From IMG/VR virus record IMGVR_UViG_3300014204_000116, positions 1 to 64,000 of that record: DNA of 64,000 nt. The stretch is one strand, 5' to 3'. The notes below the pieces were generated by a model. The model saw nothing but the letters and a program-made list of their open reading frames with translations, had not been told where the DNA came from and ran no database searches. Source of the stretch: a virus (lineage: Duplodnaviria > Caudoviricetes). Below, piece after piece: positions 3,266-47,997 of the stretch. The position numbers and the translations under genes were made by a program. The number at the start of each line of letters is the position of its first letter. Within the stretch, counting starts at the first letter, position 1.

Positions 3266-3484
3266 ATGCCAGTATCAATTGAAAAGACAGACGGAAAATA
3301 CCGAGTGAGTACTCCGCACGGAGTGAAGGCCAAGCATACGACTAAGGCAAAGGCAGAGCGGCAGCGCAATTTGTTAAATGCGGTCGAACATGGATGGGAA
3401 CCGACAGGCGCTCCGGCACGTGACACGAAGGAGTCACTCCAGGGAAAAGCTCAAGCGCTTGTTGACGCCATGCTTGACGAATGA
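3266..3484 (+). CDS. Small hypothetical late protein with C-terminal AQALVDAMLDE motif
   Basis: ORF preceded by GTAGTTA at 3240. Confidence 0.65.
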   Translation: MPVSIEKTDGKYRVSTPHGVKAKHTTKAKAERQRNLLNAVEHGWEPTGAPARDTKESLQGKAQALVDAMLDE

Positions 3485-4152
3485 TGAGAGACGATTTGCC
3501 AGATCTCCCCTTGGCCAAAGCCTCGAAAAAATATGCTCGTCTAACGAGTAAAGATTTGGGGTCTGACTGGAGTAAGAAGGTAGACATGTTTATGGACATG
3601 ATTTCTGCGGAAACTAACCAACCCAAGGAAGGATTTAGAAATATCGATGCGGCAGGCAAAGTGCCACACGCGATAAAGGAGGCTAGTCAGGCCGCACTCG
3701 AATTAGCTGCACAGGCCTGGTGTGATGATCGCACAAGCCGCGTGACCATGAACGTGGACTTGGCCGAAGTTTTTGCTGATATACTGGATGCCGTGGAAAA
3801 AAAGGGATTGGCCAAATATCATGCTCAATGCACCGTTACCCCAGGCGAGTTAGCTGAGACAGTCGTAAGCGTTCTAATGGATGACGACGACGAACGAATT
3901 GTTGCAGCGGCGGTGAAGGGCAGCAACGGTAAGATCTACCGTGGAAAGGCTCATTTCGGAGCGATACAGAGTGCAGCCCACGATGGGCAGATGTACATGG
4001 TTCACTTTGGGGATGATGACCTCGGATTTGTCACCAGTAAGGGTCGATGGGTGGACCGGCCAGAGGCAGAGCTTATAGGCATGAGGCATAAGCAGCTAAG
4101 GCCTGAAATATCCGATCCTGTCCAGGTTCATGCAGCAGATTTTAGATTTTGA
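3481..4152 (+). CDS. Hypothetical protein; C-terminal domain paralogous to that of 43103..44035
   Basis: Translationally coupled ORF; IVAAAVK..G.AH..GFVTSKGRWVDRPEA. Confidence 0.7.
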   Translation: MMRDDLPDLPLAKASKKYARLTSKDLGSDWSKKVDMFMDMISAETNQPKEGFRNIDAAGKVPHAIKEASQAALELAAQAWCDDRTSRVTMNVDLAEVFADILDAVEKKGLAKYHAQCTVTPGELAETVVSVLMDDDDERIVAAAVKGSNGKIYRGKAHFGAIQSAAHDGQMYMVHFGDDDLGFVTSKGRWVDRPEAELIGMRHKQLRPEISDPVQVHAADFRF

Positions 4153-4154
4153 TT

Positions 4155-6521: not shown

Positions 6522-6523
6522 CC

Positions 6524-7414
6524 ATGGACGACTTTCCTAGAATTTACCGTGAGAAGGGCTACCCGGCTTGTGGGCGTCTTATCGTCCTGGACGACGGCAC
6601 CCAAGCTGATCATTTACAGCCCCTGGACCAGAACAAGTTTTTCTCAATCGACTTTCCAGCGATGCCAGATCAAATTGAGCTGGCGCGCCAGGCCGACTAC
6701 AGAGTCCAGACAAACTATGCCATGCCTGATGGCGTGCACCTATACCGAGGGACTAACCCAATGGAAGTCCCATTTGAGTTCAAGCTGCACTATTTGGACA
6801 AGAGCTACTGTAAGGAAGGGGCACTAACCCTTATCAACATTGCAGCTCGATTACACGCCCTGGTGTTGCCTATGGGAAATTCCACACTGCGAATCACAGT
6901 GCAGAATGATTCTCCTCTGGATCACAATGGCCAGACCGACCAGGGGGCTAAGAAGCCAGGCACTGAAACTGCCCAGTCTGCGCGTGCAGGCCAAAATTCG
7001 GCGGATAACAGCGGGATTAATCAGCAGGCAGATGCGGATTCTTCTGCTACTGTTACGTTAGACTCATCGAATGCCATAGATCCTCCTGTGACATGCCGCC
7101 TGGAACTGATGTATTCAACATCCACCGGTCCTGGCGTTGTGTGCAATGGCTACGTTAAAAACGTTAAAGTGGCGTTTCTTAAGCCTTGGCTACGTGGACC
7201 GAACGGGTCTTTTAACCTGCCCTCGGGAGGCATATACTCGTTCACGTTTATTCATCACCCAGGGCATGGCAACTATTTTTCGAACAGAACGGGAGTGGCA
7301 GCAATATCGCAGCAGGCCAACGCCTACGCAGACTTTATGCGTAGCCGGTTTTACAATACGCGCATGCTGCAAACTACTTCCAAGTATCGCGGGTTTAGTC
7401 GAACGACGCGTTAG
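6524..7414 (+). CDS. Putative baseplate or tube-initiator protein downstream of the tape measure gene
   Basis: Position after the TMP; beta-rich pattern IDFPAMPDQI..Y.GT.P..V.F.FKL..PPVTCRL..NGYVKNV.V. Confidence 0.55.
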   Translation: MDDFPRIYREKGYPACGRLIVLDDGTQADHLQPLDQNKFFSIDFPAMPDQIELARQADYRVQTNYAMPDGVHLYRGTNPMEVPFEFKLHYLDKSYCKEGALTLINIAARLHALVLPMGNSTLRITVQNDSPLDHNGQTDQGAKKPGTETAQSARAGQNSADNSGINQQADADSSATVTLDSSNAIDPPVTCRLELMYSTSTGPGVVCNGYVKNVKVAFLKPWLRGPNGSFNLPSGGIYSFTFIHHPGHGNYFSNRTGVAAISQQANAYADFMRSRFYNTRMLQTTSKYRGFSRTTR

Positions 7415-9362
7415 TTTTCCACGAGAGTTTGGTCTCGCCTTGGCCAGTTTTCTGCGCAACCAGGACGTAATCGGCGTAGCTGGCAACCTCGGGATGGTGA
7501 TCCACCACGAATATGAGGATGCCCAGGCGGTGCGCGGTTTCTTTGAGGTAGGTTAGGATGCTGCGCCTGATAACGGTATCCTGCGAGCTTAGGATCTCAT
7601 CGTACCACCTGAATCCGATTCTTTTGCTGACCGACCCGACCTCTGAAAGCGTTTCTGCAATAATGAGGTTTGTCAGACCGGATTCACCCTTGGAGCTTCC
7701 CTCGATACGCTTAGAGCCTATTTTGTTATTAACGCGGATGACAAGCTCTGATGACGTGCCCTTGCCACTAGCCAGTTGCCGGGATGTATCGTACGAGACC
7801 TCAATCGTCCCACCGGTCATCAGATTGCTGATGCGGCGTGAAATTTCGTTTAGCGGGGCTATCGCTTCCGACAGGATCAGGTTGGGTATGCCAGTGGGGC
7901 TGAAGGCTTCTGTCCAATAGCCGACAACTTTAACCACTTCCTGCGCCTCAGCCAGCTTTGCGGAGGTCTCTTCCACGTCTGTAGTGATCTTCGCACTTTG
8001 GTCTTTTCGTTCGGTAACAACGGCTCCATAGCGTTCTATTCCAGATCGATCCGGTCCTCGGCTGAGGGCTTGAAGGCGCAATTGCGCCTGGTTGATGGCA
8101 CTGTTCGACAAGTTGATGTCCCGCTCATTTTCTTCGTACTCATAACTAAGGGTGCTCGATTGCGCCGGAGTGCGAAGCTTGCTTATTTGCTCCTCGATAG
8201 CCCTTACTTGGTTGCGGATATCACCAGCCGATTTGTCTACATCCTGGATTTTAACCACCACCCCATCGTAGGATTTTTTGAATGATACGACGGCCAACTC
8301 CTGCTTTTTAATCTCATCTGCACTATGGGCTTTATCCCACGGCTTGCCACACGTGGGGCAATTGTCGGGTATGGACCTCATTTCATCGAGCACTTTGACC
8401 TGGGCTTGCTGCGCCGTAAAAGCCTTGGCCTTTTTCTCCACGAGGTCATTCCGTTTAATTTGGAGCGTGCTGGCATCCGTGTTAAGCGCCAAACGTTTCT
8501 TTTCAAGCTGGGCATAGGCAGCGGCCCCCTCCACTTCTAACCGCTTCAACTCAGATTTAATGGCTGCCTGGCGGGCCTGCAATTTAGCAACATGATCCTG
8601 GCGGATGCTGAGGCGGTTCTGTACCTCGGTGCACTGCGCAGCAATTTTAGCCTCCTCTTCCGCTATTCTATCCTTTTCATCCTGTAGGGTACGCAATGCA
8701 GATTTTATTGCCTCTTCCAACCGTTCCTTTTCGCCTTTGAGCCAGTTCAACCTTGTCTCTTCAGATTCAGCATCTCGCTGGGCATTTCCCAGCATTTTTC
8801 GAGAATGCTCATTTATTTTATCCCAAGATGGCTGTTGTAGCGCTGCCATGAGCAGGCCGACTGAATCACGCTCTGACTGCTTGTTAAAGCGCAGCCGATC
8901 CCCGTCAATGTAGACGGTCCATTCTGCAAGCTCCGGTGTGACAGAGATCGCAGACGCAAGTTCTTGCCGGGTTTCTCGGACGTAGCCTCGCTCAATGATG
9001 CCCTGATCATCGAATTTAAACCGCAGGCCTTCGCCCGTGGGGCTGATTTCCTTGCATTTATGTCCGAGTTCTACCACCAAAGGCTTTTGGCTTAGGTCGG
9101 TTTCCACACGGACGTACATGTTTCCCTTTCCGTGCGTGCTGTAATGGCCCAAGTTCGTGTAGCGGCCATCTATACCAGTAAGCGTTCGGCAGAGGGCCTC
9201 CCCCAAGGCTGTTTTTCCGGCCCCGACCGAGGACATTTTACCCGCAGATGCCAAGTTGTCACCGTTTACGAGGACGAGCCCCTGCTTGGGAAATGTAAGT
9301 TCGGCTTGACGAATCGTCATCCAGTTGCGAATATGAACACGGCGTAGTTTAAGCTCGCTCAT
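7395..9362 (-). CDS. SbcC/Rad50-like (T4 gp46-like) recombination ATPase
   Basis: Walker A GAGKT, long coiled coil with central CPTCG zinc hook, signature S.GE, Walker B 'WYDE', H-loop 'VVDH'. Confidence 0.92.
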   Translation of the reverse strand: MSELKLRRVHIRNWMTIRQAELTFPKQGLVLVNGDNLASAGKMSSVGAGKTALGEALCRTLTGIDGRYTNLGHYSTHGKGNMYVRVETDLSQKPLVVELGHKCKEISPTGEGLRFKFDDQGIIERGYVRETRQELASAISVTPELAEWTVYIDGDRLRFNKQSERDSVGLLMAALQQPSWDKINEHSRKMLGNAQRDAESEETRLNWLKGEKERLEEAIKSALRTLQDEKDRIAEEEAKIAAQCTEVQNRLSIRQDHVAKLQARQAAIKSELKRLEVEGAAAYAQLEKKRLALNTDASTLQIKRNDLVEKKAKAFTAQQAQVKVLDEMRSIPDNCPTCGKPWDKAHSADEIKKQELAVVSFKKSYDGVVVKIQDVDKSAGDIRNQVRAIEEQISKLRTPAQSSTLSYEYEENERDINLSNSAINQAQLRLQALSRGPDRSGIERYGAVVTERKDQSAKITTDVEETSAKLAEAQEVVKVVGYWTEAFSPTGIPNLILSEAIAPLNEISRRISNLMTGGTIEVSYDTSRQLASGKGTSSELVIRVNNKIGSKRIEGSSKGESGLTNLIIAETLSEVGSVSKRIGFRWYDEILSSQDTVIRRSILTYLKETAHRLGILIFVVDHHPEVASYADYVLVAQKTGQGETKLSWKTNASFD

Positions 9363-9395
9363 TACACTAAAGAACAGAACCGTAGTTATTATCAA

Positions 9396-9941
9396 ATGGC
9401 TGATTTCGAGAAAAGTTCAATTTCCAACTCGGCACAGGGATTTATGATAATTCCCTCCGTCCCGCTATTGAGCCATGGTGTAAGAGTTCCCGTTAAAGAG
9501 GGCGAAGACTTCATGGCAGCAACAGCAAATATTCTGGAGCACCATGGAATTTTGACCCAGGATCTCGCAACCTACATGCACAATAATGCAGACGAGGTTG
9601 TGCAGAAGATAATTGATGTCTACAAAATGACGTATATCGTCAAAATTGGCGAGGAAGTAAGCGTTTACAGCCCGAAGCGCCGACAAAGGCTGCCTGAAGA
9701 AGCGGCCAGACACGTCATGATCATGATGGACATCAATCCTCGCACTCCTGTTGGATGGTATGCAACGACAGACGGCAACCCATATTTTTCTACGGCTGAC
9801 GTAGTGCTTTTCGGAGGGAAGGAACCTCCCGCTGTAAAGGCGGCTAAAACTAAGCGCTTAACACGGCGCATTTTAAGGCCAACGAGCACTGATGAGTGTA
9901 ATGCGAATACCGTTGTTAACCAAATGATAGGCCCACGATGA
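9396..9941 (+). CDS. Hypothetical late protein
   Basis: 181-aa ORF preceded by GTAGTTA at 9382; C-terminal ANTVVNQMIG motif. Confidence 0.65.
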   Translation: MADFEKSSISNSAQGFMIIPSVPLLSHGVRVPVKEGEDFMAATANILEHHGILTQDLATYMHNNADEVVQKIIDVYKMTYIVKIGEEVSVYSPKRRQRLPEEAARHVMIMMDINPRTPVGWYATTDGNPYFSTADVVLFGGKEPPAVKAAKTKRLTRRILRPTSTDECNANTVVNQMIGPR

Positions 9942-11284
9942 AGCAACAGCTTACGCTTCAAGAATTGCTCGACGCCATTGCTTCTGAGGAACTATTCGAG
10001 GACATGACGTATGCGGATTTTTTGCGCCTGGCCGATCCTGGCCGACTTCAAAGATCCGGGTATGTGCGTGGCCCGCCGATGGAGATCTACGGTAATTCTA
10101 AGCAAGAATACCACGTTTTCAACTACAAATCCTACCCGAGCACGACAGGATTTAGGCATAAGGGCTACATCGCGTTTAAAAAGCCGAAGGGTAAGCCCCG
10201 CCCCGTAGAACAATTGGCCGTCGAAGTAGATTGCGATTGCGACGATTACCGCTACCGCTGGGCCTGGGCTAACCGCCAAAAGGGAGCCGGTAAGATCGGG
10301 CCGCAAAGTCTTAACAAGTGCATAAACCGTGCCCCCAGGATTACTAATCCATCGGGCAAGCCCGCGCTGTGTAAGCACCTACTCGCCGCGCGGCACAGCA
10401 TAATGGGCTTACTGGCTCACTTCCCAAAACCCACAGAAGGCGAGACAGACGTAGACATATCCTGGAAATTAGATCAGCTCGTAAAGCAGACGCAGAAGCG
10501 CTCTGACAATTATGCTGCGGCCCGCGAAAAAGCGCGCGCGATGACCAAGTCCAAGAACCTGGTGCGCAACTACAGAAACGTCTACGGCCCGATGGCCCAG
10601 GCAGAAGTTCCCCCAGCGCCTGAAGATGAGCCTGTGCCCCTTCCACCTGAAATGCCCGAAGAACCCCGGATGTCACCCCGGAAGTCGCCTTTAGCACCGC
10701 CTGCACCAGGAGCCTTAGGCCCGCAACTTCCAGCGGCCCCGCCAGTAGCTCCAAAAAAGAGTGAGAAATTGGGGGCAAGCCCTGCTGCTAAACCACCGAC
10801 TCCTGTGCCACGTAAGCCTCAAAGTAAAAAGCGTGGAGAATCTCTCGTAGTTATACAGAACAGTGATACTCGTATGAATGCTGAACTACTCAAAGAATCC
10901 AAGACCATCGTTGAAGAGATGGGTGACGAACTTGACACAGAACTTTCGGCTCCCGGTGGTGCCGAGGGTAATCCTGGTGAAGAACTTCCTCCTCCTGCGA
11001 CCACGGATGAAATGCCCCCGATGGGTGACGAAATGCCACCTGGAGAAGGCGGCTCTCCTGAGGACGAAGCGCTTAATCTTTTGCGAGAGATCGCCGGAGG
11101 CATAACTCGCCTGGCTGACGAAATCGCGCCTATCGCCGCCGAAGAGGAAGCCGAAATCGAAGGAGAGGCTGAACCTCTGCCCGACGAGGATGAAGGCGAA
11201 GGAGACAAGAAAGACATCGCGGTTCCTCCGGTTGAGGACGAGGATGAATTCTCAGAAACTATGCCGGTTCCCACAGGCGCATAA
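9938..11284 (+). CDS. SWIM-type zinc-finger protein with Pro-rich linker and acidic C-terminus
   Basis: CDCDDY...CKHL (CxC..CxH); low-complexity P/E-rich tail. Confidence 0.7.
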   Translation: MKQQLTLQELLDAIASEELFEDMTYADFLRLADPGRLQRSGYVRGPPMEIYGNSKQEYHVFNYKSYPSTTGFRHKGYIAFKKPKGKPRPVEQLAVEVDCDCDDYRYRWAWANRQKGAGKIGPQSLNKCINRAPRITNPSGKPALCKHLLAARHSIMGLLAHFPKPTEGETDVDISWKLDQLVKQTQKRSDNYAAAREKARAMTKSKNLVRNYRNVYGPMAQAEVPPAPEDEPVPLPPEMPEEPRMSPRKSPLAPPAPGALGPQLPAAPPVAPKKSEKLGASPAAKPPTPVPRKPQSKKRGESLVVIQNSDTRMNAELLKESKTIVEEMGDELDTELSAPGGAEGNPGEELPPPATTDEMPPMGDEMPPGEGGSPEDEALNLLREIAGGITRLADEIAPIAAEEEAEIEGEAEPLPDEDEGEGDKKDIAVPPVEDEDEFSETMPVPTGA

Positions 11285-22743: not shown

Positions 22744-22790
22744 GCCTTAACTACCCACAATAATCAATACGAACTAGTAGTTAACAGCGT

Positions 22791-29557: not shown

Positions 29558-29621
29558 ATCTCTATAGGAGAACAGAAATCGGAAGAAATGGCAATACTTT
29601 TTGTTCTTTGTAGTTAATATT

Positions 29622-32344: not shown

Positions 32345-32679
32345 AAAAGGCTATAACCGTAGGAAGATCAGATTTTGTAAAGCAGTTGATGCGGCGCTCT
32401 GGATTTAAGTACGTAGAGGCGTGCCAGGCATACGAAACGATGATATCCACCCTATCCGACGCTATTACGCGCGGTGATTACGTGTGCCTCGGCGAAATTG
32501 GTGCCCTGGTCCCATCCATAGTGCCGCCGAAGCAAGTTCGAATGGGATTCGTAATGAAAAAGGGTGGAAAGACGGAGAAGCTCACGCGGGAATTCTTTTT
32601 AGACAGCCGACTCAAGTATAAATTTCGGCTGTTCAAGGGTTTCGTCAAAAACCATCAATTACACTGGCCCGTGCAGTAG
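32341..32679 (+). CDS. HU/IHF-like DNA-binding protein
   Basis: Two N-terminal helices, 'AI..GD.V.LG.IG.L', basic beta arm, 'KFR..K.F'. Confidence 0.7.
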   Translation: MKKAITVGRSDFVKQLMRRSGFKYVEACQAYETMISTLSDAITRGDYVCLGEIGALVPSIVPPKQVRMGFVMKKGGKTEKLTREFFLDSRLKYKFRLFKGFVKNHQLHWPVQ

Positions 32680-32688: not shown

Positions 32689-34002
32689 ATGTCAATAGAC
32701 CCGTTATCTCTTCCGAGTGCCGCAGGTATCAACTACGGTGAAGGAGACGTTCGGCATTTCTCCGAGGGTGATGCCGTAGCAGTCCCCTCATTATCAAATC
32801 CGACACGCCACCTGGCCCAGCGTGATTCTTTGATCGTCGATAAGCTGAATGAAGTAGTCTCCGAGGTCAACAACAAAGAGCAGATTGTGCCACTCCCGGT
32901 GTATCGCACTGTCATCCCTGCCAATACCGAAGAGATCATCGCCAACCTGCGCATCCCTCCCAGCTATGAAGCCCGAGTGTTGAGTGCAGCGATTGGATCT
33001 AGTCCTATATCATCTAACGTCGAGCTGAATGTCCTGTGGAATAGCACTTTTGGGAACACCACCGGCACATCGGTCTTAACAACCGCCGCAGAGACAAATG
33101 GCGGCACCAAATTTTCGCCTAGTGGCGAGTTCATAATTTCTGTCAAGAATAAGGGTGATACAACACTCGATATCATGGCTAGTGTTACGCTTACCATGCG
33201 CCCGACGTCTACAGTTACAAGCGCACTGTTGCCCGCGCCATCGCTGGCACCCTCTGGTCCTCCGGGGCCTAAAGGAGATAAAGGAGATCTTGGCGGGGCT
33301 GGCCCTACTGGGCCTGCGGGAAGTCCAGGATTGATCTATCGAGGCCAGTGGGCTAAGACTCCTTACCCTCAGAATTATTCTGCGAATGACGTAGTAACTC
33401 ACAACTTCGCAGGGACTAGTGGATCTTCCTCATACGTGTGCTTGACACCCCACATCGCTGACGACATAAACAAACCGAACCCCACTTTAACACCGAGCAC
33501 TTACTGGGATTTCATCGCATCTGCGGGCGCTATTGGCGCGTCTGGAAGCGTAGGATCAGCCGGAACTACGGCATTGTTTGGCTTCAGCGATAACCTCGTT
33601 CAAGGAACGCTTATCACCAGCAGTGATTTCTACGGGGATATTTTCAACTCGACTTACAACTCGGCGAGTATACTGCCAGGCAAGACATATGGCTTATCGT
33701 TCCATGAGATATCCATGGTAGCTCCCGACAATAGCCCGAGTGGAATTTGCATGATACAGGCGCAAACCACCGCTTGTTTCTCTGGCACGCTGGCACTATA
33801 TCTCCCTGGGCTGATTAATGGAGGGCTGGCAGATTACAATCTTCAGCACTGCAACATAAACGTAACATCTCACGGTTCAATTGCAGATGTGGCTTCAGCG
33901 CTATTCGTAGTTCCTTCGGGCACAACCGGCGTTGAAATCGTTCAGTCAGGAACGGCGCGGCCAATATGGATATCTGTGAGTGGGCAGCAGCTAGTGCCTT
34001 AA
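32689..34002 (+). CDS. Tail fibre / appendage protein with short collagen-like repeat
   Basis: NPTRHLAQRD motif, GPPGPKGDKGDLGGAGPTGPAGSPG, then RGQW...Y..NDVV..SSYVC...H...W carbohydrate-binding-like module. Confidence 0.75.
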   Translation: MSIDPLSLPSAAGINYGEGDVRHFSEGDAVAVPSLSNPTRHLAQRDSLIVDKLNEVVSEVNNKEQIVPLPVYRTVIPANTEEIIANLRIPPSYEARVLSAAIGSSPISSNVELNVLWNSTFGNTTGTSVLTTAAETNGGTKFSPSGEFIISVKNKGDTTLDIMASVTLTMRPTSTVTSALLPAPSLAPSGPPGPKGDKGDLGGAGPTGPAGSPGLIYRGQWAKTPYPQNYSANDVVTHNFAGTSGSSSYVCLTPHIADDINKPNPTLTPSTYWDFIASAGAIGASGSVGSAGTTALFGFSDNLVQGTLITSSDFYGDIFNSTYNSASILPGKTYGLSFHEISMVAPDNSPSGICMIQAQTTACFSGTLALYLPGLINGGLADYNLQHCNINVTSHGSIADVASALFVVPSGTTGVEIVQSGTARPIWISVSGQQLVP

Positions 34003-40296: not shown

Positions 40297-40298
40297 TC

Positions 40299-40327
40299 TT
40301 GCCATCTGCTTTGCATTTTGCTACACT
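40299..40327 (+). promoter_or_regulatory. Sigma70-like early promoter
   Basis: TTGCCA-N17-TACACT with an extended TG. Confidence 0.6.
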
Positions 40328-40346
40328 CCTCAGCATTGGAACGATT

Positions 40347-40622: not shown

Positions 40623-41325
40623 CTGGACCAAAGCAAATGCGTGGATCGATAGCTACCTCACCCACATTACCAACCCGAACACCATCCCCTGTCGGTTTGG
40701 ACGGGCATGGCTGGAGCAGGAAGCCGTGAAGGTGGGCCTGGTTGAAGATGATGGCCAGAGTTGGGAGTTTATGGAAAGCCATGCGACCTGGTATAATGCA
40801 CTAATCAATACGGGTCGGCTCTACCTGGTGATCAACACGGAAAAGGCAGTATCGAACCGAGGCCAGAAAGGTGAGCCCACTACACTCGATGCCGTTCGTG
40901 ATCTCCTTTCTGAAGAGAAGCGTAACACACTTGCCGCCAATGTATTTCGCGACGTGCTGACAGCGGTGGGGGACATTAGCCCAGTTAATGGCCACACCAA
41001 AGTAGCACTTCACCCTGCACTCAAGCTCTTTCAGCAGCTCTTCGAGGAGGCCTGCAAGAATCCTGGCCCTGAGTCTGTAACGAATTATGTCCCTCGTGCG
41101 GTGTTTCACAAGCGCGCGCAAGAGGAGGGGATGTTAACGTCCGATTCCTGGGTAGACGCGTTGAAATGGGAAGAAGAGGTCGGGATGCCTGAATTTGCGC
41201 ACAAGTTGTTCGCCAAGCACCACAAGAAGGTAGGCTCTGATTTTACCCCGATGGAAAAGGGCAAGTGGAGAAACTACAGGAAGATGAAAGCTCTTCGCCT
41301 GGGTCAGCAGCTCAAGGGATCGTAG
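40609..41325 (+). CDS. Hypothetical protein
   Basis: 238-aa overlapping ORF. Confidence 0.65.
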   Translation: MKKINWTKANAWIDSYLTHITNPNTIPCRFGRAWLEQEAVKVGLVEDDGQSWEFMESHATWYNALINTGRLYLVINTEKAVSNRGQKGEPTTLDAVRDLLSEEKRNTLAANVFRDVLTAVGDISPVNGHTKVALHPALKLFQQLFEEACKNPGPESVTNYVPRAVFHKRAQEEGMLTSDSWVDALKWEEEVGMPEFAHKLFAKHHKKVGSDFTPMEKGKWRNYRKMKALRLGQQLKGS

Positions 41326-41355
41326 TATTACGGACAAACTTTCTGAACTTTTCTA

Positions 41356-41384
41356 TTGCATTCGTAATTGAGTACTGCTAGGAT
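41356..41384 (+). promoter_or_regulatory. Sigma70-like early promoter, probably leaderless transcript
   Basis: TTGCAT-N17-TAGGAT; GTG start 6 nt downstream. Confidence 0.65.
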
Positions 41385-41390
41385 GGCGGC

Positions 41391-42383
41391 GTGATAAACG
41401 AAACGACCACGACCCCTGACCTGAGCAGCTACGACTACTTCATCGTTGCATTGTCGGGTGGCAAAGACTCCGTTGCCTGCGCCCTCTGGCTGATCGAGCA
41501 GGGCGTTGATCTCTCCAAGATCGAGCTGTGGCATCACGATATCGACGGTCGCGAAGGATCTGATCTGATGGATTGGACCGTCACCCGCGATTACTGCAAG
41601 AAATTCGCTGCCGCATTCGGGCTGAAGATCTACTTCTCCTGGCTCCAGGGCGGTTTCGAACGCGAGATGAATCGCAACAACAGCCTCAAAGCCCCGACCT
41701 CCTGGGAAAACCCCGATGGCACCGTTGGCACCAGCGGCGGCGTCCGTGGCAAAGCCAACACCCGCCAGGTATTTCCCCAGGTAAGCGCTGATCTGTCCGT
41801 TCGCTGGTGCTCAGCATATCTGAAGATCGATGTAATGAGCGCAGCCATCTGTGGTCAGGAACGCTTCAACGGCAAGCGCACCCTCATCCTTACCGGCGAG
41901 CGCGCCGAAGAATCCTCCGCTCGCGCCAAGTATGCCACCTTCGAGCCCCATCGCGCCGACGCTCGTAACGGTCGCAAAGCCCGCCATATAGATCAGCTCC
42001 GCCCCGTTCACGGCTGGTCCACCCGGCAAGTCTGGGACATTATCGCGCGCCACAACGTGAATCCTCACCCTTGCTACCGCGCCGGTTTCGGTCGCTGCTC
42101 CTGCATGTTCTGCATTTTCGCCTCCGCCTGCCAGGCCGCTACATCCCGCCTGATTGATCCTGTCCGTCACGCCCGCGTTGCCGCATACGAAGCCAAGTTT
42201 GGCAAGACCATCAAGCGCAACAAGAGCCTGGATCAGCTCGCCGACGAGGGCACCCCTTACGCCGCTAGCCAAGCCGACATCGAAGCCTGCCGCAAGTCCA
42301 CCTTCGACGAAGCGATCATTCTCCCTGATGGCCAGTGGAAGTTACCCCTGGGAGCATTTGCTGAATCCTGTGGACCTGTGTAA
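41391..42383 (+). CDS. PAPS-reductase-family (PP-loop) protein
   Basis: SGGKDS PP-loop, RWCSAYLK, GERAEES..RA, P..GWS..QVW, HPCY..GF.RCSC.FC. Confidence 0.88.
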   Translation: MINETTTTPDLSSYDYFIVALSGGKDSVACALWLIEQGVDLSKIELWHHDIDGREGSDLMDWTVTRDYCKKFAAAFGLKIYFSWLQGGFEREMNRNNSLKAPTSWENPDGTVGTSGGVRGKANTRQVFPQVSADLSVRWCSAYLKIDVMSAAICGQERFNGKRTLILTGERAEESSARAKYATFEPHRADARNGRKARHIDQLRPVHGWSTRQVWDIIARHNVNPHPCYRAGFGRCSCMFCIFASACQAATSRLIDPVRHARVAAYEAKFGKTIKRNKSLDQLADEGTPYAASQADIEACRKSTFDEAIILPDGQWKLPLGAFAESCGPV

Positions 42384-42390
42384 TTAAGAT

Positions 42391-42657
42391 ATGCACTATC
42401 GAGCAATTCTAAACAAAACGCTGGAAAAGCTGAGGGCCATGGGCCACGACGCTGCATTGGTAAAGAAACTGGGCTATGCCGAGAACATGGACGAGCTGCA
42501 CAGTGTCTTGCGTGAATACGTCCTGGGCACCGACGCCAAAGTCAATGCCTTCCTAGACCAGGTGAAGGGCGAGCTTCAAGGTCAAGCATCTCAAGTAGTT
42601 GGCCGAATGCTCGATACCCCGGCGAGGAAATGCCCGAACTGTGGATACACTTTATGA
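42391..42657 (+). CDS. Small hypothetical protein with C-terminal CPNC
   Basis: Behind GTAATTAAG; ASQVVGRMLD motif. Confidence 0.6.
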   Translation: MHYRAILNKTLEKLRAMGHDAALVKKLGYAENMDELHSVLREYVLGTDAKVNAFLDQVKGELQGQASQVVGRMLDTPARKCPNCGYTL

Positions 42658-43094
42658 GCAGGATTGCCAAGCAGATCGTAGGAGAAGCTGCCGAGAGAAT
42701 ACCCTACTGGGAGCGTGAAGAAAAACAGCAGCACATAGCCAACCTTAAGGGGAACCGTATTTAATTTGTGGCACGCGAATCACAATTTGTAGACAGATAC
42801 CTCTCCCTGAATGGGAAGCGTGGATGGGACGACGGCCTTACGATTGGCTCATATCTCCATTCCGTTCTTGGGGGTAAGGCTAGACAATTTTCGGCCAAAT
42901 ATGCTGTTGCGCTGCAAAGGGCATGCTGGAATCGCGTCATGACAGGCAGGGCTCGAAAAGGAACGAGCAAGCTCGGGGGCACCGCTTACTATCCCACGCT
43001 CGATGTTAATGCAGTTGTAGACAGATTACTCGATATGCCGTCCAAGCCATCTGAGTCGGCCTACGACATCGATGATCCGCAACTCGGAGAATAG
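42654..43094 (+). pseudogene. Hypothetical gene split by one in-frame TAA (or two tiny in-frame genes)
   Basis: ATG 42654 MSRIAKQIVGE..NRI, TAA at 42762-42764, same frame continues FVARESQ.. to 43094. Confidence 0.45.
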
Positions 43095-43102
43095 CACGAA
43101 GT

Positions 43103-44035
43103 ATGACCAACCTTAAGAAGATATTCAAGCCTGGGACCGTCTGGACGCGGACGAATCATCGCTTTCCCTACCGGAGAGACGGGAAGATAGTGGAGCCCAC
43201 TGGGAGTCCTGTCCAGGTCAAAGTAGTGCGCCTCTACCCCGATGCGGTAGCGTTTCAGCTCGATCACGAGACTATTTCGTATCTGTCCTGGCCGCAGCCG
43301 CCGCTGGAGGTTAGAGCTTCTCCCGATAAGGTCGAGATCTCGGACAACCAGGGTATTCTCCTGACCTACGTGAAGGTGCCATCTCTTTCCGAAGTCAACA
43401 AGGTCACCCTGGCCGACTTCCTCAGCAATGGCTTTTTGCTGATGAAACTCATCCCGTTCTGGTATGCCGTCCACTGGCGCGGTGAGAGGGTCGGGGCCGT
43501 CCGTATACCGTCTTGGAGCAACCCACAGCGGGTTGTCACCTGGCTGAACATGGCGAACCAGAAGATGCCGTTCGACTTATCTGTAGGCAATTTCCACAAC
43601 TGGATGAAGAGGCTGGAAGCAGAGAAGGTCATGCCAAAGTTTCCCATCTTGCCACGCGTATTGAACAAGGTTGCGGAGTCAGTTGTAGACAGCATGCTCG
43701 AAAACGCCGTGACCAAAGCAGCTATCCGCATCAAGGACGGTCGGATATTCAGCGGCCCCATCCATTGCATGGCAGTCTCAGTGATGCAGGATCAGAAAGT
43801 GCTATCGCCAGCAGAGGAAGATCTCGAAGGTGAGCTTCGGAATCTGGGTGCAGAGTTCGGCTGGCTGGACGAAGAAGGCCAGTTCCTTACCCGCCGCCAG
43901 GCTTACAAGCTCGCGGTCGCCTCCGGCCAGATAGCCGACACATACGGGCCTGATGGGGCTCTGACCCATGACATGCTCGACGATACGTCGATTGCCATCG
44001 ACGTAGAAGATAACGCTGAGGGCGTTAGTCCTTAA
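43103..44035 (+). CDS. Multidomain hypothetical protein; C-terminal domain paralogous to 3481..4152
   Basis: AESVVDSMLE motif, then AAIR..DG.IFSG..H..FGWLD..GQFLTR.QA...A..SGQI. Confidence 0.7.
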   Translation: MTNLKKIFKPGTVWTRTNHRFPYRRDGKIVEPTGSPVQVKVVRLYPDAVAFQLDHETISYLSWPQPPLEVRASPDKVEISDNQGILLTYVKVPSLSEVNKVTLADFLSNGFLLMKLIPFWYAVHWRGERVGAVRIPSWSNPQRVVTWLNMANQKMPFDLSVGNFHNWMKRLEAEKVMPKFPILPRVLNKVAESVVDSMLENAVTKAAIRIKDGRIFSGPIHCMAVSVMQDQKVLSPAEEDLEGELRNLGAEFGWLDEEGQFLTRRQAYKLAVASGQIADTYGPDGALTHDMLDDTSIAIDVEDNAEGVSP

Positions 44036-44057
44036 CCATATCGCGCAAATCCGCAAT

Positions 44058-44606
44058 ATGGTTAGGGGAGTAAAGCATCGTAGACGCGTTCTTCTATACA
44101 TGCTGGATAAAGTCTCTCGGCAAATGCTACGACATGTCTGCTACTGCCATCCCAGGGGAAACCCAAAAGATCCTTACCGCCATTTTGACATCAGCGAAGG
44201 CCACATGGTTCGGGGATCATTGTTCATCTGCAACGGGTGCGACCGTAGAAAGCGGTGGAAGTCTGCGGATCTTAGCGCGATTTGTAAGCATAACTCAGTC
44301 GAAAAGATAATCCATCGACTTTTGTTCGCGCACAAATGCCGGTTCATTCCCGGCTATTGCTTAGGAAATTTCAAGTTCGACTACGCAATACCACACCTTC
44401 GTGTTTTGGTGGAGATTGATGGAAAAACTTATCACAAGGAAGAAAAGCCTACAGAAGACGGCCTGCCTAAACCTTTAGTGCCGGGCACCAAAGCTTGGGT
44501 CGTCCACGAGCACGGCTGGAAATTAGTGCGGGTGCAGAATGGCCCACGGTTGAGAGAGCGGTTTATTGCAGAAGTGCTAAAAGCGTGCCAGGTAGTTAAG
44601 GCATGA
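44058..44606 (+). CDS. DUF559/Vsr-like PD-(D/E)xK endonuclease
   Basis: FDYAIP...VLVEIDG..YH...GWKLVRV pattern; Cys-rich N-terminus. Confidence 0.75.
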   Translation: MVRGVKHRRRVLLYMLDKVSRQMLRHVCYCHPRGNPKDPYRHFDISEGHMVRGSLFICNGCDRRKRWKSADLSAICKHNSVEKIIHRLLFAHKCRFIPGYCLGNFKFDYAIPHLRVLVEIDGKTYHKEEKPTEDGLPKPLVPGTKAWVVHEHGWKLVRVQNGPRLRERFIAEVLKACQVVKA

Positions 44607-45430
44607 ACAATCCCGCGATTGCAGAGTGCGCTGTAGACATTATGCTAGATGCTTTTCCTGCCCAGCAGGAAGGTGTCGAGTCTTCATCTGCTGTTCCTAC
44701 GCCGCCCGCAGAGGGTGGGGTATCCTTTACGACGAGTGACATGCGCGATCTTTTCTACAGTTCGCACACTTACGGGCCAATCTTACTCCTGGTTAGTGAA
44801 GCGGACAAGTGGGAAGGCAGCACCCTGGATGGGCATGTCACGAGAATTAGCCATCAGTATTTGCACGAGAATACCATCATATTCCAATGGAGTGATTACA
44901 ACTACACCAGGGAATGGACTGATAAAGGTACCGGCGAAAGGATACCAGAAAAAGCTGCCTTGGCTATTGACGAGCTAATCGACAAAGTTGAGAAGCTAAT
45001 GACTCGGCATGTTCGAACAATTAGCAAGCACATCTACAGGGATTTGGAAAAAGAATACAATTATCTGAATAGCGAGGAAAGCGTTGCTGAGATTATCCGT
45101 GCAAATATTTACAAGTTCGACGAGGATGGCGAGTATGATGACAGCGAGGAAGGCGTGGAGTATGATGATCTGAGTGACAGGGCCAAAGAAAAAGCCCGAG
45201 AGTGGTACACATCAAACGGTATAGACTATGATTGGTGGGAGGACGTATGTGACACCTGGAAGAGTCGGCTAAATGAAATGGGATTTGGGAGTGGCCCAGA
45301 GTACGTCAATATAGGATTTTCTGGATTTTCCAGCCAAGGTGACGGAGCGTCGTTCACTTGCAAGTCTTTCGATATTCGGGCGTACGCTCGCTACCTGGTG
45401 TCTGGAAAAGCAAAGGATCTTGGCTTATGA
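44603..45430 (+). CDS. Hypothetical late protein of a phage/ICE family with an SGFxSQGDGA motif
   Basis: IYRDLEKEYNYL.SEE, LSDRAKEKAREWY and FSGFSSQGDGASF; GTAGTTA at 44592. Confidence 0.7.
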   Translation: MNNPAIAECAVDIMLDAFPAQQEGVESSSAVPTPPAEGGVSFTTSDMRDLFYSSHTYGPILLLVSEADKWEGSTLDGHVTRISHQYLHENTIIFQWSDYNYTREWTDKGTGERIPEKAALAIDELIDKVEKLMTRHVRTISKHIYRDLEKEYNYLNSEESVAEIIRANIYKFDEDGEYDDSEEGVEYDDLSDRAKEKAREWYTSNGIDYDWWEDVCDTWKSRLNEMGFGSGPEYVNIGFSGFSSQGDGASFTCKSFDIRAYARYLVSGKAKDLGL

Positions 45431-45717
45431 CTACTCTTGCCGAAAAGATCATTGGTGAGCCCAATAAACAACGGTTTGTCTCGCTATTCATGCACATGAA
45501 CTCGGAGGATCGGAAGCTCATCCACCACTGGAGTATCGATCACGATGATTCAGTTTCGAAAGTTTGCTTCTACATGACTCTGATTGGCCAGGGATTTATC
45601 GAGTTCATCTCGGATTACACCGATAGGCATAACGGGGATTTCAGGATGTACCCCTATGGGGCGTGGATTTGCGTGGAGCTAATGATACCTGATAGTAGCC
45701 CAGATAAGCTGCCCTGA
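45427..45717 (+). CDS. Hypothetical protein
   Basis: Coupled ORF beginning MTTLAEKIIGE. Confidence 0.55.
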   Translation: MTTLAEKIIGEPNKQRFVSLFMHMNSEDRKLIHHWSIDHDDSVSKVCFYMTLIGQGFIEFISDYTDRHNGDFRMYPYGAWICVELMIPDSSPDKLP

Positions 45718-45763
45718 CTACATCTTCTGCACAACCCGTATTTTAATTACGGTAGTTATAGGG

Positions 45764-46225
45764 ATGGCTGTTGTTCTTACAACCGAGCAACTTGATTTTC
45801 TGGCAAAGACCGCCTCTTGGAAGTTCGATGTGGACTTCAAGGATCTGCGGGACAGCGTTACGTACACAGGCGACGGAGTAGATGACCTGGACATGCTCAT
45901 TAACAGGCTGACAGGCCCACTGTACATGCAGCCCAAGATCCTGTGCGATGTGGGCAAGCTGTTTAGTAGCTGGATAATCGTGACTGTAGATGATATTTAC
46001 GCGCTGAGAGGGCGCTACATAGAAATTCACGGTACAGCTAGCAAACCACCCGAGTATTACGATCAGCGCGCGGGCTCGACGATTGAAGTGACGGGCACCA
46101 CCTACGAGGCTGGGAACGTAGCGGGGCCAAACCCAGAGGGCAACTACGGCGACTTTACAGACTATGGAGATGGTCGGGGCCGGACTCATCCGTCTACAAC
46201 TCCTGACCAGGTGGTGGGGCTATGA
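45764..46225 (+). CDS. Hypothetical late protein
   Basis: GTAGTTA at 45752. Confidence 0.6.
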   Translation: MAVVLTTEQLDFLAKTASWKFDVDFKDLRDSVTYTGDGVDDLDMLINRLTGPLYMQPKILCDVGKLFSSWIIVTVDDIYALRGRYIEIHGTASKPPEYYDQRAGSTIEVTGTTYEAGNVAGPNPEGNYGDFTDYGDGRGRTHPSTTPDQVVGL

Positions 46226-47997
46226 GAACGGTTCACGAAGTTATAGCAGCTATGCCCGATGATTTTGGCATTGAACCTCGCGAAATAGTAAGAGCAGCAC
46301 TATTTCAAACGCGCGAAAAATTACTCGATGACTTCGGCCTGAAGAAGGATGACAAGGAAAACTACATAATACCGGATACTGGGTGGACAGAGCATTACTA
46401 CAATCTCTACGACCGGGCCAACTACCTGGCTTTCATTAAGCACTTTAAGCCGTGGGTAAAATCCAGCCCGCATGGAACTGAAGAAGGAGCGGTTATCCTG
46501 CATAGGTCGCTATTTTTCATGCCGACGTCCAAGATAAAAGAGCTTTTGGATGCCATCACGGATATTAAGGACAATTATCCAGTTCTTGATGAGGAGATCC
46601 TAAGTGATTTGGAAGTGGAATTGTCGGAGGAAGCCTGGGGGAGCACATATCGAAAAGAGTTCAAGAAACTGGTAAAAGATGCCGTCTCTCCCTTCTTTGA
46701 GGATATTACCCCCGAAGAAGGCGCATCACCCTGGGAGATGGTTGAAGATCTTTTGGACGGTGATGAAGGCGATGGTATACTCGATGATTTTTTTAGGTAT
46801 TATCAAGAGCACTCAAATGGCGATGACTGGGAGTTCGAAGATAGTGGTGGCGTAAGACTTCGATTGAAAAAGGTGGAGCAGGATATTTACAATAGTGATT
46901 TAGGTGTGAAATGGGCACGCGAGCTGAAAAACAAGCTATGGCCGGAAGACCCGAGGCAGCTAAAGTTTAAATTTGCCGAGTGCATTGTCGGGCATTTACT
47001 GGCGGGCTGCGTCACTCTGATAGAGTCGTCTGGAGCTGCCCGTATAATGGCCGCGCAACTCATGGAGGACAGCGGCCCCCATGAGTATTCGTGCGTAATG
47101 ATAGATCTTCCACCGGATATGTCGGCTAAAATCATTGCGTGGGGTCGGCAGCAGATTCCTAATGAGCAGCTTTTTGTAGACAAAGATGGTGGTAGCGGTC
47201 GGGAGGAAGAGATTCATGTAACCGTGAAATACGGACTTCACGACGCGATGCCGAATGAGGCGCTCAAGAAAATTTTCGGTAGCACTGCGCCATTTGAAAT
47301 AGAACTTGCCCCGATCAGCTTGTTTAGGAACGAGGGTCATGACGTCGTAAAAATGGAAGTTAGTAGTCCACAGCTTCGGGAGCTAAACCGGGTGATAACG
47401 GCATCGTGCGATTGCACGGATTCCTACCCGGAGTATAAGCCACATGTCACTCTGGCTTATGTCCGCCCCGGCACCTGTGACCGGTTGGAGGGAACATCCC
47501 CGTTTGATAACCCGATTAAAATGGGCGCGACCACTCTCAGGAAGGAAGGCCATTTTACGGCTAACCAGGTTGTCTTTTCGTCCAGAACTGGCATAAAGAA
47601 GAGCTATAGCTTAGGCCCGGAAGAGCCGGAGAAGGAACAAGTAGAAGAAGATGACAGCGCAGGCGAATCAACGCCCGGAATAGATCCGGCTGAGATTGCG
47701 CGTCCTTTTATCAGGGGTAAGGAAGTGTCATTGAAGAACCTTCGATTAGCGGCTAGCCGTGAACTCATAAGGTCGATCCATGTCAACAGAAGGGGCGTGG
47801 GTAGCTATCCTGAAGGAAGACTGACTTTCTTTTTTATGCGCGGTGCAAATAGATACGTTGATTTTTGTTCCCTAGGGGTGCTGGCTCAAGCACTTCGGGA
47901 ATGGCGAAACCTTAAGGGTGTCCCACTCTTCGTCGATAATGCGACAGCCGGTGTGGTTTCCTACCAGAATCCAGTTCTAGCGGCTTTGGCTCGCTGA
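46222..47997 (+). CDS. Multidomain protein containing a 2H phosphoesterase (T4 57B/Acb1-like) domain
   Basis: Two HxT motifs, 'IHVTVKYGL' and 'YPEYKPHVTLAY', at about 47080-47615. Confidence 0.8.
   Translation: MRTVHEVIAAMPDDFGIEPREIVRAALFQTREKLLDDFGLKKDDKENYIIPDTGWTEHYYNLYDRANYLAFIKHFKPWVKSSPHGTEEGAVILHRSLFFMPTSKIKELLDAITDIKDNYPVLDEEILSDLEVELSEEAWGSTYRKEFKKLVKDAVSPFFEDITPEEGASPWEMVEDLLDGDEGDGILDDFFRYYQEHSNGDDWEFEDSGGVRLRLKKVEQDIYNSDLGVKWARELKNKLWPEDPRQLKFKFAECIVGHLLAGCVTLIESSGAARIMAAQLMEDSGPHEYSCVMIDLPPDMSAKIIAWGRQQIPNEQLFVDKDGGSGREEEIHVTVKYGLHDAMPNEALKKIFGSTAPFEIELAPISLFRNEGHDVVKMEVSSPQLRELNRVITASCDCTDSYPEYKPHVTLAYVRPGTCDRLEGTSPFDNPIKMGATTLRKEGHFTANQVVFSSRTGIKKSYSLGPEEPEKEQVEEDDSAGESTPGIDPAEIARPFIRGKEVSLKNLRLAASRELIRSIHVNRRGVGSYPEGRLTFFFMRGANRYVDFCSLGVLAQALREWRNLKGVPLFVDNATAGVVSYQNPVLAALAR

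What the first reader, a model, noticed from the sequence alone, without database searches (positions are those of the whole stretch)
3266..47100. Shared short helical tag on many unrelated late proteins: candidate capsid-targeting / protease-processing system
Seen: a motif resembling A-x-x-[VIL]-V-[DNSG]-x-[ML]-[LMI]-[DEG] recurs in otherwise unrelated ORFs. Examples: AQALVDAMLDE* (3266), AETVVSVLMDD (3481), ANTVVNQMIG (9396), ASQVVGRMLD (42391), VNAVVDRLLD (42768), AESVVDSMLE (43103), AECAVDIMLD (44603), AECIVGHLL and AAQLMED (46222), plus shorter IAKQIVGE (42654) and LAEKIIGE (45427). It lies at termini or domain boundaries, mostly in genes behind GTAGTTA or GTAATTAA motifs. Known: T4 internal proteins carry a short capsid-targeting sequence removed by the gp21 protease after Glu. 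Inference: a portable docking helix that loads diverse cargo into the head for injection, with multidomain ORFs processed as polyproteins.
Basis: partly seen in the sequence, partly recalled or inferred. Interest (0 to 1): 0.8.

Follow-up and report, generated by a model that had tools for sequence, protein, structure and literature searches.

The report
Portable helical address tag on phage proteins
An uncultured giant relative of phage T4 attaches the same short helical peptide to many otherwise unrelated proteins, most likely as an enlarged version of T4's label for loading proteins into the virus head, though neither loading nor cutting has been measured.

Summary
Conservation is in the protein, not the DNA.

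The tag is portable. In ORF 46222 it is an insertion absent from a relative's ortholog. In homologs of ORF 44603 it sits at the N-terminus in some and the C-terminus in others.

The host is a 72%-complete fragment of a distant T4-type jumbo phage. S77 protease and gp23 capsid genes are absent from the fragment but present in 4 of 4 near-complete relatives. The tag's hydrophobic positions match the spacing of T4's capsid-targeting sequence.

Head loading is the best reading, but it is inferred. Cleavage is weakly supported in this window: only 2 of 8 long tags carry Glu at the expected site, and 7 of 8 are internal or C-terminal.

Earlier reports of this scan reached the same reading on this genome and on other large T4-like phages.

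The parts
3266..3484 (+). 72-aa basic ORF; long tag forms its last 11 residues (nt 3449-3481) and ends in Glu-stop. The stop overlaps the start of the next ORF.
3481..4152 (+). 223-aa ORF; internal tag at aa 125-135 (nt 3853-3885), directly before a T4 Arn.3/T4_Y16D-like domain.
9396..9941 (+). 181-aa ORF; C-terminal tag at aa 170-180 (nt 9903-9935), no Glu. The stop overlaps the start of ORF 9938.
42391..42657 (+). 88-aa ORF; tag at aa 66-76 (nt 42586-42618), 13 residues from the C-terminus.
42654..42764 (+). 36-aa ORF starting with the short N-terminal tag (M-S-R-I-A-K-Q-I-V-G-E; motif nt 42663-42686).
42768..43094 (+). 108-aa ORF; tag at aa 80-90 (nt 43005-43037).
43103..44035 (+). 310-aa ORF; internal tag at aa 191-201 (nt 43673-43705) between an N-terminal domain and a T4 Arn.3/T4_Y16D-like domain.
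44603..45430 (+). 275-aa ORF; N-terminal tag at aa 7-17 (nt 44621-44653); phrog_5162-type C-terminal domain. Homologs carry the tag at the N- or the C-terminus.
45427..45717 (+). 96-aa ORF starting with the short N-terminal tag (M-T-T-L-A-E-K-I-I-G-E; motif nt 45436-45459).
46222..47997 (+). 591-aa multidomain ORF. Two tag-like helices (nt 46975-47007 and 47050-47070) lie in a roughly 36-aa insertion just before a 2H-phosphoesterase (Acb1-like) domain (aa 328-434).
3240..3246 (+). GTAGTTA element 19 nt before the ATG at 3266. The same element lies 4-9 nt before the starts at 9396 (element at 9382), 44603 (44592), 45764 (45752) and 48016 (48000), and GTAATTA at 42380 before 42391.
29610..29616 (+). 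The same GTAGTTA element before the portal gene (ATG 29622). It also precedes the gp5-like hub gene (element at 22754, minus strand) and the fibre-like gene at 32689 (element at 32676), linking tagged genes to structural genes.

Best explanation
The motif is a short amphipathic docking helix followed by an acidic or Gly/Pro-rich stretch. Its core is A-x-x-[IVL]-V-x-x-[LM]-[LIM]-[DEG]-x, and there is a shorter N-terminal form ending in [IV]-[IV]-G-E. It works as a portable address label. By analogy with the capsid-targeting sequence (CTS) of phage T4, it would bind the scaffold core of the assembling prohead, so that any protein carrying it, at either end or between domains, is enclosed in the head and later injected with the DNA. 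Where the helix ends in [LI]-x-Glu or L-L-Glu, the lineage's T4-type S77 prohead protease would cut after the Glu. This applies to most N-terminal tags and polyprotein linkers elsewhere in the genome and to the two short tags here. Most long tags in this window end in Asp or lack an acidic residue, so I expect them to target without being cut there. Shown: the motif is real, protein-level, portable and position-independent, and each genome has its own dialect. Relatives have S77 and gp23. Tagged genes share an upstream element with structural genes. Inferred: the helix, the receptor, packaging, cleavage and injection.
For: 1. Enrichment and replication.
2. Portability. The tag segment of ORF 46222 is an insertion relative to the G001 ortholog, and a 177-aa stand-alone 2H protein in G004 has no tag. 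The domain that follows an N-terminal tag in G000 ORF 134133 follows an internal tag in G001, and G001 ORF 198925 has tags at several domain joints. In the cargo family of ORF 44603 the tag is N-terminal in the window protein, P0004 and P0033, takes the short N-terminal form in P0007 and P0008, and is C-terminal in P0009 and P0010. Only 4 of 119 homologs match the tag pattern, all among the closer full-length ones.
3. T4-type head. Sheath, tube, portal, hub and wedge genes lie in the window. S77 is found in 4 of 4 relatives that are at least 90% complete, and gp23 in 4 of 4.
4. Same geometry as the T4 CTS. IPII/IPIII, Alt and gp24 begin with hydrophobic-x-x-hydrophobic-hydrophobic-x-Glu. In IPIII, residues 4 and 7 govern targeting and residues 8 and 10 govern processing; Asp at 10 blocks processing but not targeting; Alt is also trimmed at its C-terminus (PMC9026906 passages). 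These correspond to tag positions 5, 8, 9 and 11.
5. Bona fide head proteins of the clade keep L-x-Glu near their N-termini. Of 32 distinct protease N-termini, 27 match a loose pattern of two or three hydrophobic residues followed by Glu or Asp within the first ten residues (for example ...Y-L-I-E-G...L-L-E-D). The capsid protein propeptides conserve V-L-E and L-A-E.
6. Co-regulation. 10 of 28 genes behind GTA[GA]TTA are tagged against 11 of 192 others (odds ratio 9.1, P = 3e-5). The element also precedes portal, hub and fibre-like genes.
7. Dialects. Tags are more alike within a genome than between genomes (mean identity 0.266 against 0.216; permutation p = 0.0002), as expected if all tags of one phage serve one receptor.
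8. Composition. There is 1 Pro in 288 core residues, a helical hydrophobic moment of 0.388 against 0.283 for the proteome, and 30% Asp+Glu in the next 8 residues against 11%.
Against: No virion, cleavage or binding data exist. The contig is 72% complete and holds neither S77 nor gp23, so this phage's own scaffold and core proteins were not seen. In the window 7 of 8 long tags are internal or C-terminal and only 2 of 8 carry Glu at position 10 or 11. A profile trained only on the N-termini of relatives' head-core proteins (the gene two upstream of the protease) is not enriched in this genome: 11 sites against 12.9 in shuffles. A matrix trained on tags outside the window finds few window tags: 3 at threshold 8 against 0.8, and 0 at threshold 12. 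The window uses its own dialect, with Met at position 8 in 6 of 11 sites against 2 of 21 outside (P = 0.01). My matrix does not detect T4's own CTS: the best T4 score is 9.3, below the cut-off of 11, and gp68 reaches 7.3. All tagged proteins are orphans, so none can be tied to a known virion protein. The most distant relative, G004, shows no enrichment: 2 against 1.7.
Confidence: 0.55

Rival explanations
1. The helix docks the proteins onto a different common partner: a phage-encoded hub or chaperone, or a host protein acting inside the infected cell. Nothing is loaded into the head.
For: Position independence, genome-specific dialects and portability show one shared receptor but do not identify it. 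The profile of head-core N-termini is not enriched. Most window tags lack the Glu that a head-protease substrate would need. The window has a dialect of its own, which could mean a second receptor.
Against: No candidate hub was found. The geometry matches the T4 CTS. Tagged genes share their upstream element with portal, hub and fibre-like genes. A 2987-aa string of tagged domains is easier to understand as packaged cargo cut into units.
Confidence: 0.2
2. The motif is only a conserved inter-domain joint or processing site for a protease, with no targeting role. Single-domain genes carry it as a relic of excision from polyproteins.
For: It recurs 8 and 3 times between Imm5-like units of the two giant ORFs. 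The same tag-plus-domain cassettes occur free or embedded.
Against: An amphipathic i, i+1, i+4, i+5 hydrophobic pattern with almost no Pro suits a docking helix better than an extended cleavage site. C-terminal tags that end the protein (3266; P0009, P0010) have nothing to release. Most window copies lack Glu.
Confidence: 0.1
3. The tag is a leader recognised by a modifying enzyme, as in RiPP-like systems. An earlier report of this scan proposed this for a shared tag in phage RB43.
For: An earlier finding on another genome (e1-127136) shows that shared phage tags need not be capsid signals.
Against: No radical-SAM gene was found in this contig, or in G001, which is 96% complete and enriched in tags (10 against 1.7). 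The only other hits are a sub-threshold match in G003 and one match in G002. Only the radical-SAM family was tested.
Confidence: 0.04
4. Chance, compositional bias, or a DNA- or RNA-level element read through in one frame.
For: The pattern was defined after seeing the data. The iterated matrix was trained and tested on the same proteome.
Against: No matches in non-coding frames. Synonymous codon variation. Presence in relatives and in database homologs.
Confidence: 0.01

Closest known systems
Capsid-targeting sequence (CTS) of phage T4 internal proteins IPI/IPII/IPIII, Alt and gp24, removed by the gp21 (S77) prohead protease
   Same: A short amphipathic peptide on otherwise unrelated, fast-evolving proteins, with hydrophobic-x-x-hydrophobic-hydrophobic-x-Glu spacing. 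The lineage has S77 and gp23. T4's internal proteins are described as diverse defence proteins with only the CTS conserved (PMC3012670 passage). The CTS is proposed as a way for T4-like phages to load varied proteins (PMC9026906 passage).
   Different: The tag is longer (about 11 residues plus an acidic tail). It is found at the N-terminus, at the C-terminus and between domains. It marks about 20 proteins in 160 kb rather than a handful. It recurs inside giant polyproteins. Glu is often replaced by Asp or absent in this window. There is no detectable sequence match to T4's CTS.
Propeptides of head and ejection proteins of giant phages phiKZ, 201phi2-1 and SPN3US, cut after Glu by gp21-like proteases
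   Same: Many head-internal proteins are processed after Glu at short motifs by a diverged gp21 homolog (PMC9026906 passages).
   Different: In the passages I read, those phages are described by a cleavage motif (S/A-X-E), not by a shared portable helix. I did not read PMC5694885, PMC10052503 or PMC7411985 beyond the search listing.
Polyvalent proteins of phages and conjugative elements (Iyer, Burroughs, Anand, de Souza, Aravind 2017, PMC5512222)
   Same: Multidomain conflict proteins predicted to be packaged in capsids and processed into units (passages). ORF 46222 combines an unknown N-terminal domain, a 2H phosphoesterase and a C-terminal domain, and the domains are reshuffled between relatives.
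   Different: In that paper processing is assigned to peptidase domains inside the protein. The word 'linker' has no occurrence in its main text. Here the joints carry a conserved helix, and I found no peptidase domain in the tagged window ORFs.

Membership tests
T4-type CTS / gp21 cargo system | The phage encodes an S77 (gp21-type) prohead protease and a gp23-type capsid protein | tested here: inconclusive
   Neither was found in this 72%-complete contig. Both were found in 4 of 4 relatives that are at least 90% complete, identified through the portal protein. By synteny they would lie upstream of the contig's start.
T4-type CTS / gp21 cargo system | The tag is an N-terminal propeptide of about 10 residues | tested here: not met
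   In the window only 1 of 8 long tags is N-terminal; 5 are internal and 2 C-terminal. It is met for the 2 short-form window tags and for 10 of 13 non-polyprotein tags outside the window.
T4-type CTS / gp21 cargo system | Hydrophobic residues at the spacing of IPIII positions 4, 7 and 8 | tested here: met
   Tag positions 5, 8 and 9 are [IVL]/V, [LM] and [LIM] at every site listed. T4 sequences come, and residue roles from PMC9026906.
T4-type CTS / gp21 cargo system | Glu at the cleavage position ([LI]-x-Glu) | tested here: not met
   Window: Glu at position 11 in 1 of 8, at position 10 in 1 of 8, Asp at position 10 without Glu at 11 in 4 of 8, neither in 2 of 8. Outside non-polyprotein sites: 9 of 13 have Glu at 10 or 11. 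Polyprotein sites: 7 of 11 have Glu at 11.
T4-type CTS / gp21 cargo system | The same tag sits on unrelated cargo (portability) | tested here: met
   In an all-against-all BLAST of the ten tagged window ORFs, apart from 3481/43103 (E = 0.012) the matches worth noting fall at the tags themselves (best E = 0.069); all other pairs have E of 0.077 or higher. Insertion and terminal swaps are shown.
T4-type CTS / gp21 cargo system | Sequence relatedness to T4's own CTS | tested here: not met
   My tag matrix scores no T4 ORF at or above its cut-off of 11 across 266 crude ORFs covering about 88% of the T4 genome. The best score is 9.3, and gp68 scores 7.3.
T4-type CTS / gp21 cargo system | Tagged proteins are present in virions and the tag is removed by the protease | not testable with these tools
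   The phage is uncultured (no near relative in the phage collection). No proteome is available.
Polyvalent proteins (PMC5512222) | Two to fifteen conflict-related domains in one polypeptide of a phage or conjugative element | tested here: inconclusive
   ORF 46222 has one recognisable conflict-type domain (2H/Acb1-like) flanked by unknown domains. ORFs 3481 and 43103 have an Arn.3/T4_Y16D-like domain plus an unknown one. The two giant Imm5-like ORFs lie outside the window.

The most novel reading that the evidence does not exclude
A clade of uncultured T4-like jumbo phages has turned T4's N-terminal capsid-targeting peptide into a general, position-independent address helix. The helix can sit at either end of a protein or between domains, co-evolves with its receptor as a genome-specific dialect, and comes in cleavable (Glu) and non-cleavable (Asp) versions. 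With it the phage would load dozens of ready-made counter-defence proteins into the head for co-injection. In this window these include an Acb1-like cyclic-nucleotide phosphodiesterase domain and Arn.3-like domains, and elsewhere in the genome strings of Imm5-like units.
Probability: 0.35. Interest if true: 0.7.

Novelty: new variant of a known kind. Interest (0 to 1): 0.58.

Why it matters
If the tag loads proteins into the head, it marks which orphan genes of these phages act in the first seconds of infection. That list would include candidate anti-defence proteins that need no transcription. It would also show that T4's handful of tagged internal proteins is the small end of a much larger cargo system. 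A short peptide that works at either end of a protein would be a practical handle for packaging foreign proteins into phage heads. The Glu and Asp versions would give a direct test of how targeting and cleavage are separated.

Tried and rejected
DNA-level element: rejected, because codons vary synonymously and no matches occur in other frames.

Near relatives in the phage collection: none by megablast. The portal protein finds only remote hits (Maribacter phages at 34% identity over 17% of the query, and one uncultured phage). tblastn with the domain after the tag found nothing.

Matrix cross-validation:
- A matrix trained outside the window recovers few window sites.
- HMMs of 14 columns gave weak scores. 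From outside to window the top hit was 7.1 bits, against a maximum of 3.7 in 20 shuffles. From window to outside the top hit was 5.2 bits, against a maximum of 7.9.
- The ranking is partly circular, because one pattern chose both site sets.

Link to head-core proteins: relatives' core proteins start with M-x-x-[LV]-[VI]-x-x-[IL]-[IL]-G-x, but a matrix built from 14 such N-termini is not enriched in this genome (11 against 12.9).

T4 gp68 contains a look-alike segment, but it ranks third in T4 and falls below the cut-off, so I draw nothing from it.

Radical-SAM maturase rival: no such gene in this contig or in G001.

Pfam and PHROGs on tagged proteins:
- In the window, only phrog_839, phrog_5162, phrog_755/3906 and the 2H/Acb1 families matched.
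- Of 10 tagged proteins outside the window, none has a PHROG family.
- Two further ones outside the window have no Pfam family.
- Of 10 tagged proteins from relatives, 1 has a Pfam family.

Sequencing runs: no RNA holder is listed. The stretch is held by a landfill run (possibly the source) and a groundwater run. Laying contigs of three runs showed an identical copy and a variant a few percent different, with too few differences over the tags to test selection.

The iterated matrix (30 sites against 0.27) was trained and tested on the same proteome, so it only describes the sites.

Supplementary files of the papers were not opened. Tables of cleavage sites in the SPN3US and phiKZ papers could bear on whether shared propeptide helices are already described.


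Full report
WHAT IS THERE. The window is the first 64 kb of a single 159,890-bp virus record. The record is classed as linear and about 72% complete. PHROG matches identify a distant T4-type myovirus: SbcC/SbcD-like nuclease, helicases, primase, tail sheath, tail tube, portal, gp5-like hub and baseplate wedge. No close cultured relative exists.

IS IT MORE THAN CHANCE. There the same pattern hits 6 times in 130 ORFs against 0.029 in 2000 shuffles. All 11 six-frame matches in the contig fall in called gene frames. Codons at conserved positions differ synonymously, so the constraint is on the peptide.

An iterated matrix lists 30 sites in the genome against 0.27 in shuffles. It was trained and tested on the same proteome, so I use it only as a description. 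It shows the tag at the N-terminus of many small orphans beyond the window. It also shows the tag 8 and 3 times between Imm5-like units of a 2987-aa and a 1434-aa ORF.

A second, shorter form, M-x-x-[IL]-A-[KE]-[KQ]-[IL]-[IV]-G-E, occurs 3 times, each right after an ATG, against 0.02 expected.

ANATOMY. The core has hydrophobic residues at positions 4, 5, 8 and 9. It contains almost no Pro (1 of 288 residues). Its helical hydrophobic moment is above the proteome mean (0.388 against 0.283). It is followed by a stretch with 30% Asp+Glu, against 11% in the proteome, and extra Gly and Pro. That describes a short amphipathic helix followed by a flexible acidic tail.

In the window 1 long tag is N-terminal, 2 are C-terminal and 5 are internal. 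In 3481 and 43103 the tag lies directly before a shared domain. The protein atlas assigns that domain to T4_Y16D. A local profile matches it to T4 Arn.3 (E = 1.2e-4 among 746 T4 ORFs), and the match starts after the tag.

In 46222 two tag-like helices lie just before a 2H-phosphoesterase domain that also matches the anti-CBASS Acb1 family. Apart from 3481/43103 (E = 0.012), the tagged window proteins show no significant similarity. The best remaining pair, 3266/42391 (E = 0.069), aligns over the tag itself, and every other pair has E of 0.077 or higher.

PORTABILITY. Compared with the G001 ortholog, ORF 46222 has a 36-residue insertion that holds exactly the tag segment. G004 has a 177-aa stand-alone 2H protein without a tag. 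The domain that follows the N-terminal tag of ORF 134133 follows an internal tag in G001 ORF 125707. G001 ORF 198925 has tags at several domain joints.

I examined 119 database homologs of ORF 44603.
- The close, full-length homologs carry a long tag at the N-terminus (P0004, P0033), a short form at the N-terminus (P0007, P0008), or a long tag at the C-terminus (P0009, P0010). P0005 and P0006 have none.
- Only 4 of 119 match my tag pattern, and none of the remote homologs does.
- P0002, a homolog of 43103, has the same two domains in the opposite order with a tag between them.

So the tag is a movable module whose position relative to the cargo is free.

LINEAGE. The portal protein finds 42 related IMG/VR loci. 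S77 prohead protease is present in 4 of 4 records that are at least 90% complete and absent from one 62%-complete record. The gp23-type capsid protein is present in 4 of 4. In three relatives that I read in full, the protease is fused to a long scaffold-like C-terminal region and sits just before the capsid gene. By synteny the module would lie upstream of this contig's first base.

A general tag pattern is enriched in G000 (22 against 1.2), G001 (10 against 1.7) and G003 (12 against 1.6), but not in the most distant G004 (2 against 1.7). Tags resemble each other more within a genome than between genomes (0.266 against 0.216; p = 0.0002, 5000 permutations, one site per protein). Composition differences and within-genome paralogy may contribute to that result. 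Even so, orthologous cargo wears the dialect of its own genome, which points to one receptor per phage.

COMPARISON WITH T4. I read T4's own sequences from its record. IPII and IPIII start M-K-T-Y-Q-E-F-I-A-E, Alt starts M-E-L-I-T-E-L-F-D-E, and gp24 starts M-A-K-I-N-E-L-L-R-E. Passages of PMC9026906 state the following:
- gp21 cuts after Glu at L/I-X-E.
- The first 10 residues of IPIII suffice for head incorporation.
- Residues 4 and 7 matter for targeting, and residues 8 and 10 for processing.
- Asp at position 10 blocks processing but not targeting.
- Alt is also trimmed at its C-terminus.

A passage of PMC3012670 calls the internal proteins a diverse set of defence proteins with only the CTS conserved. 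The tag's positions 5, 8, 9 and 11 reproduce that spacing.

Head proteins of the clade keep such sites. Of 32 distinct protease N-termini, 27 match a loose pattern of two or three hydrophobic residues followed by Glu or Asp within the first ten residues (for example ...Y-L-I-E-G or ...L-L-E-D). Capsid propeptides conserve V-L-E and L-A-E. There is no sequence-level match: no T4 ORF reaches my matrix cut-off.

REGULATION. GTAGTTA occurs 33 times in the contig, and 21 of these lie within 60 nt upstream of a called start. With GTAATTA included, 31 occurrences are followed within 1-21 nt by a start codon of an ORF of at least 40 aa, usually with no Shine-Dalgarno sequence between. Of 28 such genes, 10 are tagged, against 11 of 192 others (P = 3e-5). 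In the window alone the figures are 3 of 14 against 3 of 75 (P = 0.047). The element also precedes the portal, gp5-like hub and fibre-like genes. It is conserved in G003 (25 of 27 occurrences precede a start) and in G001 (15 of 23). This fits a late class but does not prove timing.

WHAT SPEAKS AGAINST.
- This window's long tags mostly lack Glu at the expected cleavage position: 1 of 8 has it at position 11 and 1 of 8 at position 10.
- The window tags use a dialect with Met at position 8 (6 of 11 against 2 of 21).
- Matrices trained outside the window recover them poorly.
- The head-core N-terminal motif of relatives looks similar by eye but gives no enrichment.
- All tagged proteins are orphans.

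I therefore separate three claims: a portable docking helix (well supported), head loading (best guess), and cleavage of the window ORFs (weak).

RIVALS. Another hub cannot be excluded. A plain processing joint fits the polyproteins but not the terminal tags. A maturase leader, raised by an earlier report on phage RB43, finds no radical-SAM gene in this contig or in G001.

EARLIER WORK IN THIS SCAN. Follow-up reports on neighbouring windows of this genome, and on several other large T4-like phages, reached the same CTS-like reading. I treated them as leads and re-derived the points above from my own calls. New here:
- N-terminal and C-terminal placement of the tag on one cargo family;
- the insertion in ORF 46222;
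- the dialect test;
- the scarcity of Glu in this window;
- the failed head-core matrix.

VERDICT. This is a new variant of a known kind: T4's CTS made longer, position-free and far more widely used. In the passages I read, none described such a shared helix in giant T4-like phages, but I read passages only and opened no supplements.

Noticed in passing
window 3240, 9382, 14705, 22754(-), 22777, 28570, 29610, 32676, 44592, 45752, 48000 and others; also G003 and G001: GTAGTTA(A) lies 1-21 nt (mostly 4-10) before start codons, with no Shine-Dalgarno sequence between. In G003, 25 of 27 occurrences precede a start. It could be a late promoter that yields leaderless mRNAs, or a translation signal that replaces Shine-Dalgarno.
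   Followed up: partly
window 46222-47997 (aa 328-434): A 2H phosphoesterase domain that also matches the anti-CBASS Acb1 family (PF23474, 28.8 bits against a cut-off of 27). It is embedded in a tagged multidomain protein. G004 has it as a stand-alone 177-aa gene.
   Followed up: partly
window 3481-4152 and 43103-44035: The domain after the tag belongs to T4_Y16D (protein atlas) and matches T4 Arn.3, an uncharacterised gene beside the anti-restriction gene arn. In homolog P0002 the two domains of ORF 43103 appear in the opposite order.
   Followed up: partly
window 10874-11284 and 48016-52260: Two ORF starts behind GTAGTTA read M-N-A-E-L-L-K-E-S and M-S-L-Q-N-L-K-E-S. This may be a third leader type, close to T4 gp24's M-A-K-I-N-E-L-L-R-E-S. 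The first is an in-frame internal start within ORF 9938.
   Followed up: no
G003 7692-9200; G001 234235-235851; G004 91784-93427(-): In relatives the S77 protease domain is fused to a roughly 300-aa scaffold-like, Ala/Pro-rich C-terminal region (502-547 aa in total). In T4, gp21 and gp22 are separate genes.
   Followed up: partly
head loci L096-L156 (gene two upstream of the protease): The core protein at the gp67/gp68 position starts with a conserved M-x-x-[LV]-[VI]-x-x-[IL]-[IL]-G-[ERK] and repeats similar h-h-G-x motifs inside. The final residue is often Arg, not Glu.
   Followed up: partly
genome 100620-101045 (L002): The ORF starts with a type IV prepilin-like N-terminus (M-K-K-A-F-T-L-I-E-L-L-I-A...). 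It appeared as a false positive of the loosest tag pattern.
   Followed up: no
window 59861-60313 (aa 73): A weak extra tag-like site (A-D-K-I-V-D-A-G...) scoring 9.3 with the matrix trained outside the window.
   Followed up: no
window 42000-48100: The same stretch is held almost word for word by a landfill run (possibly the source) and a groundwater run of another study. A variant a few percent different occurs in wastewater runs.
   Followed up: partly
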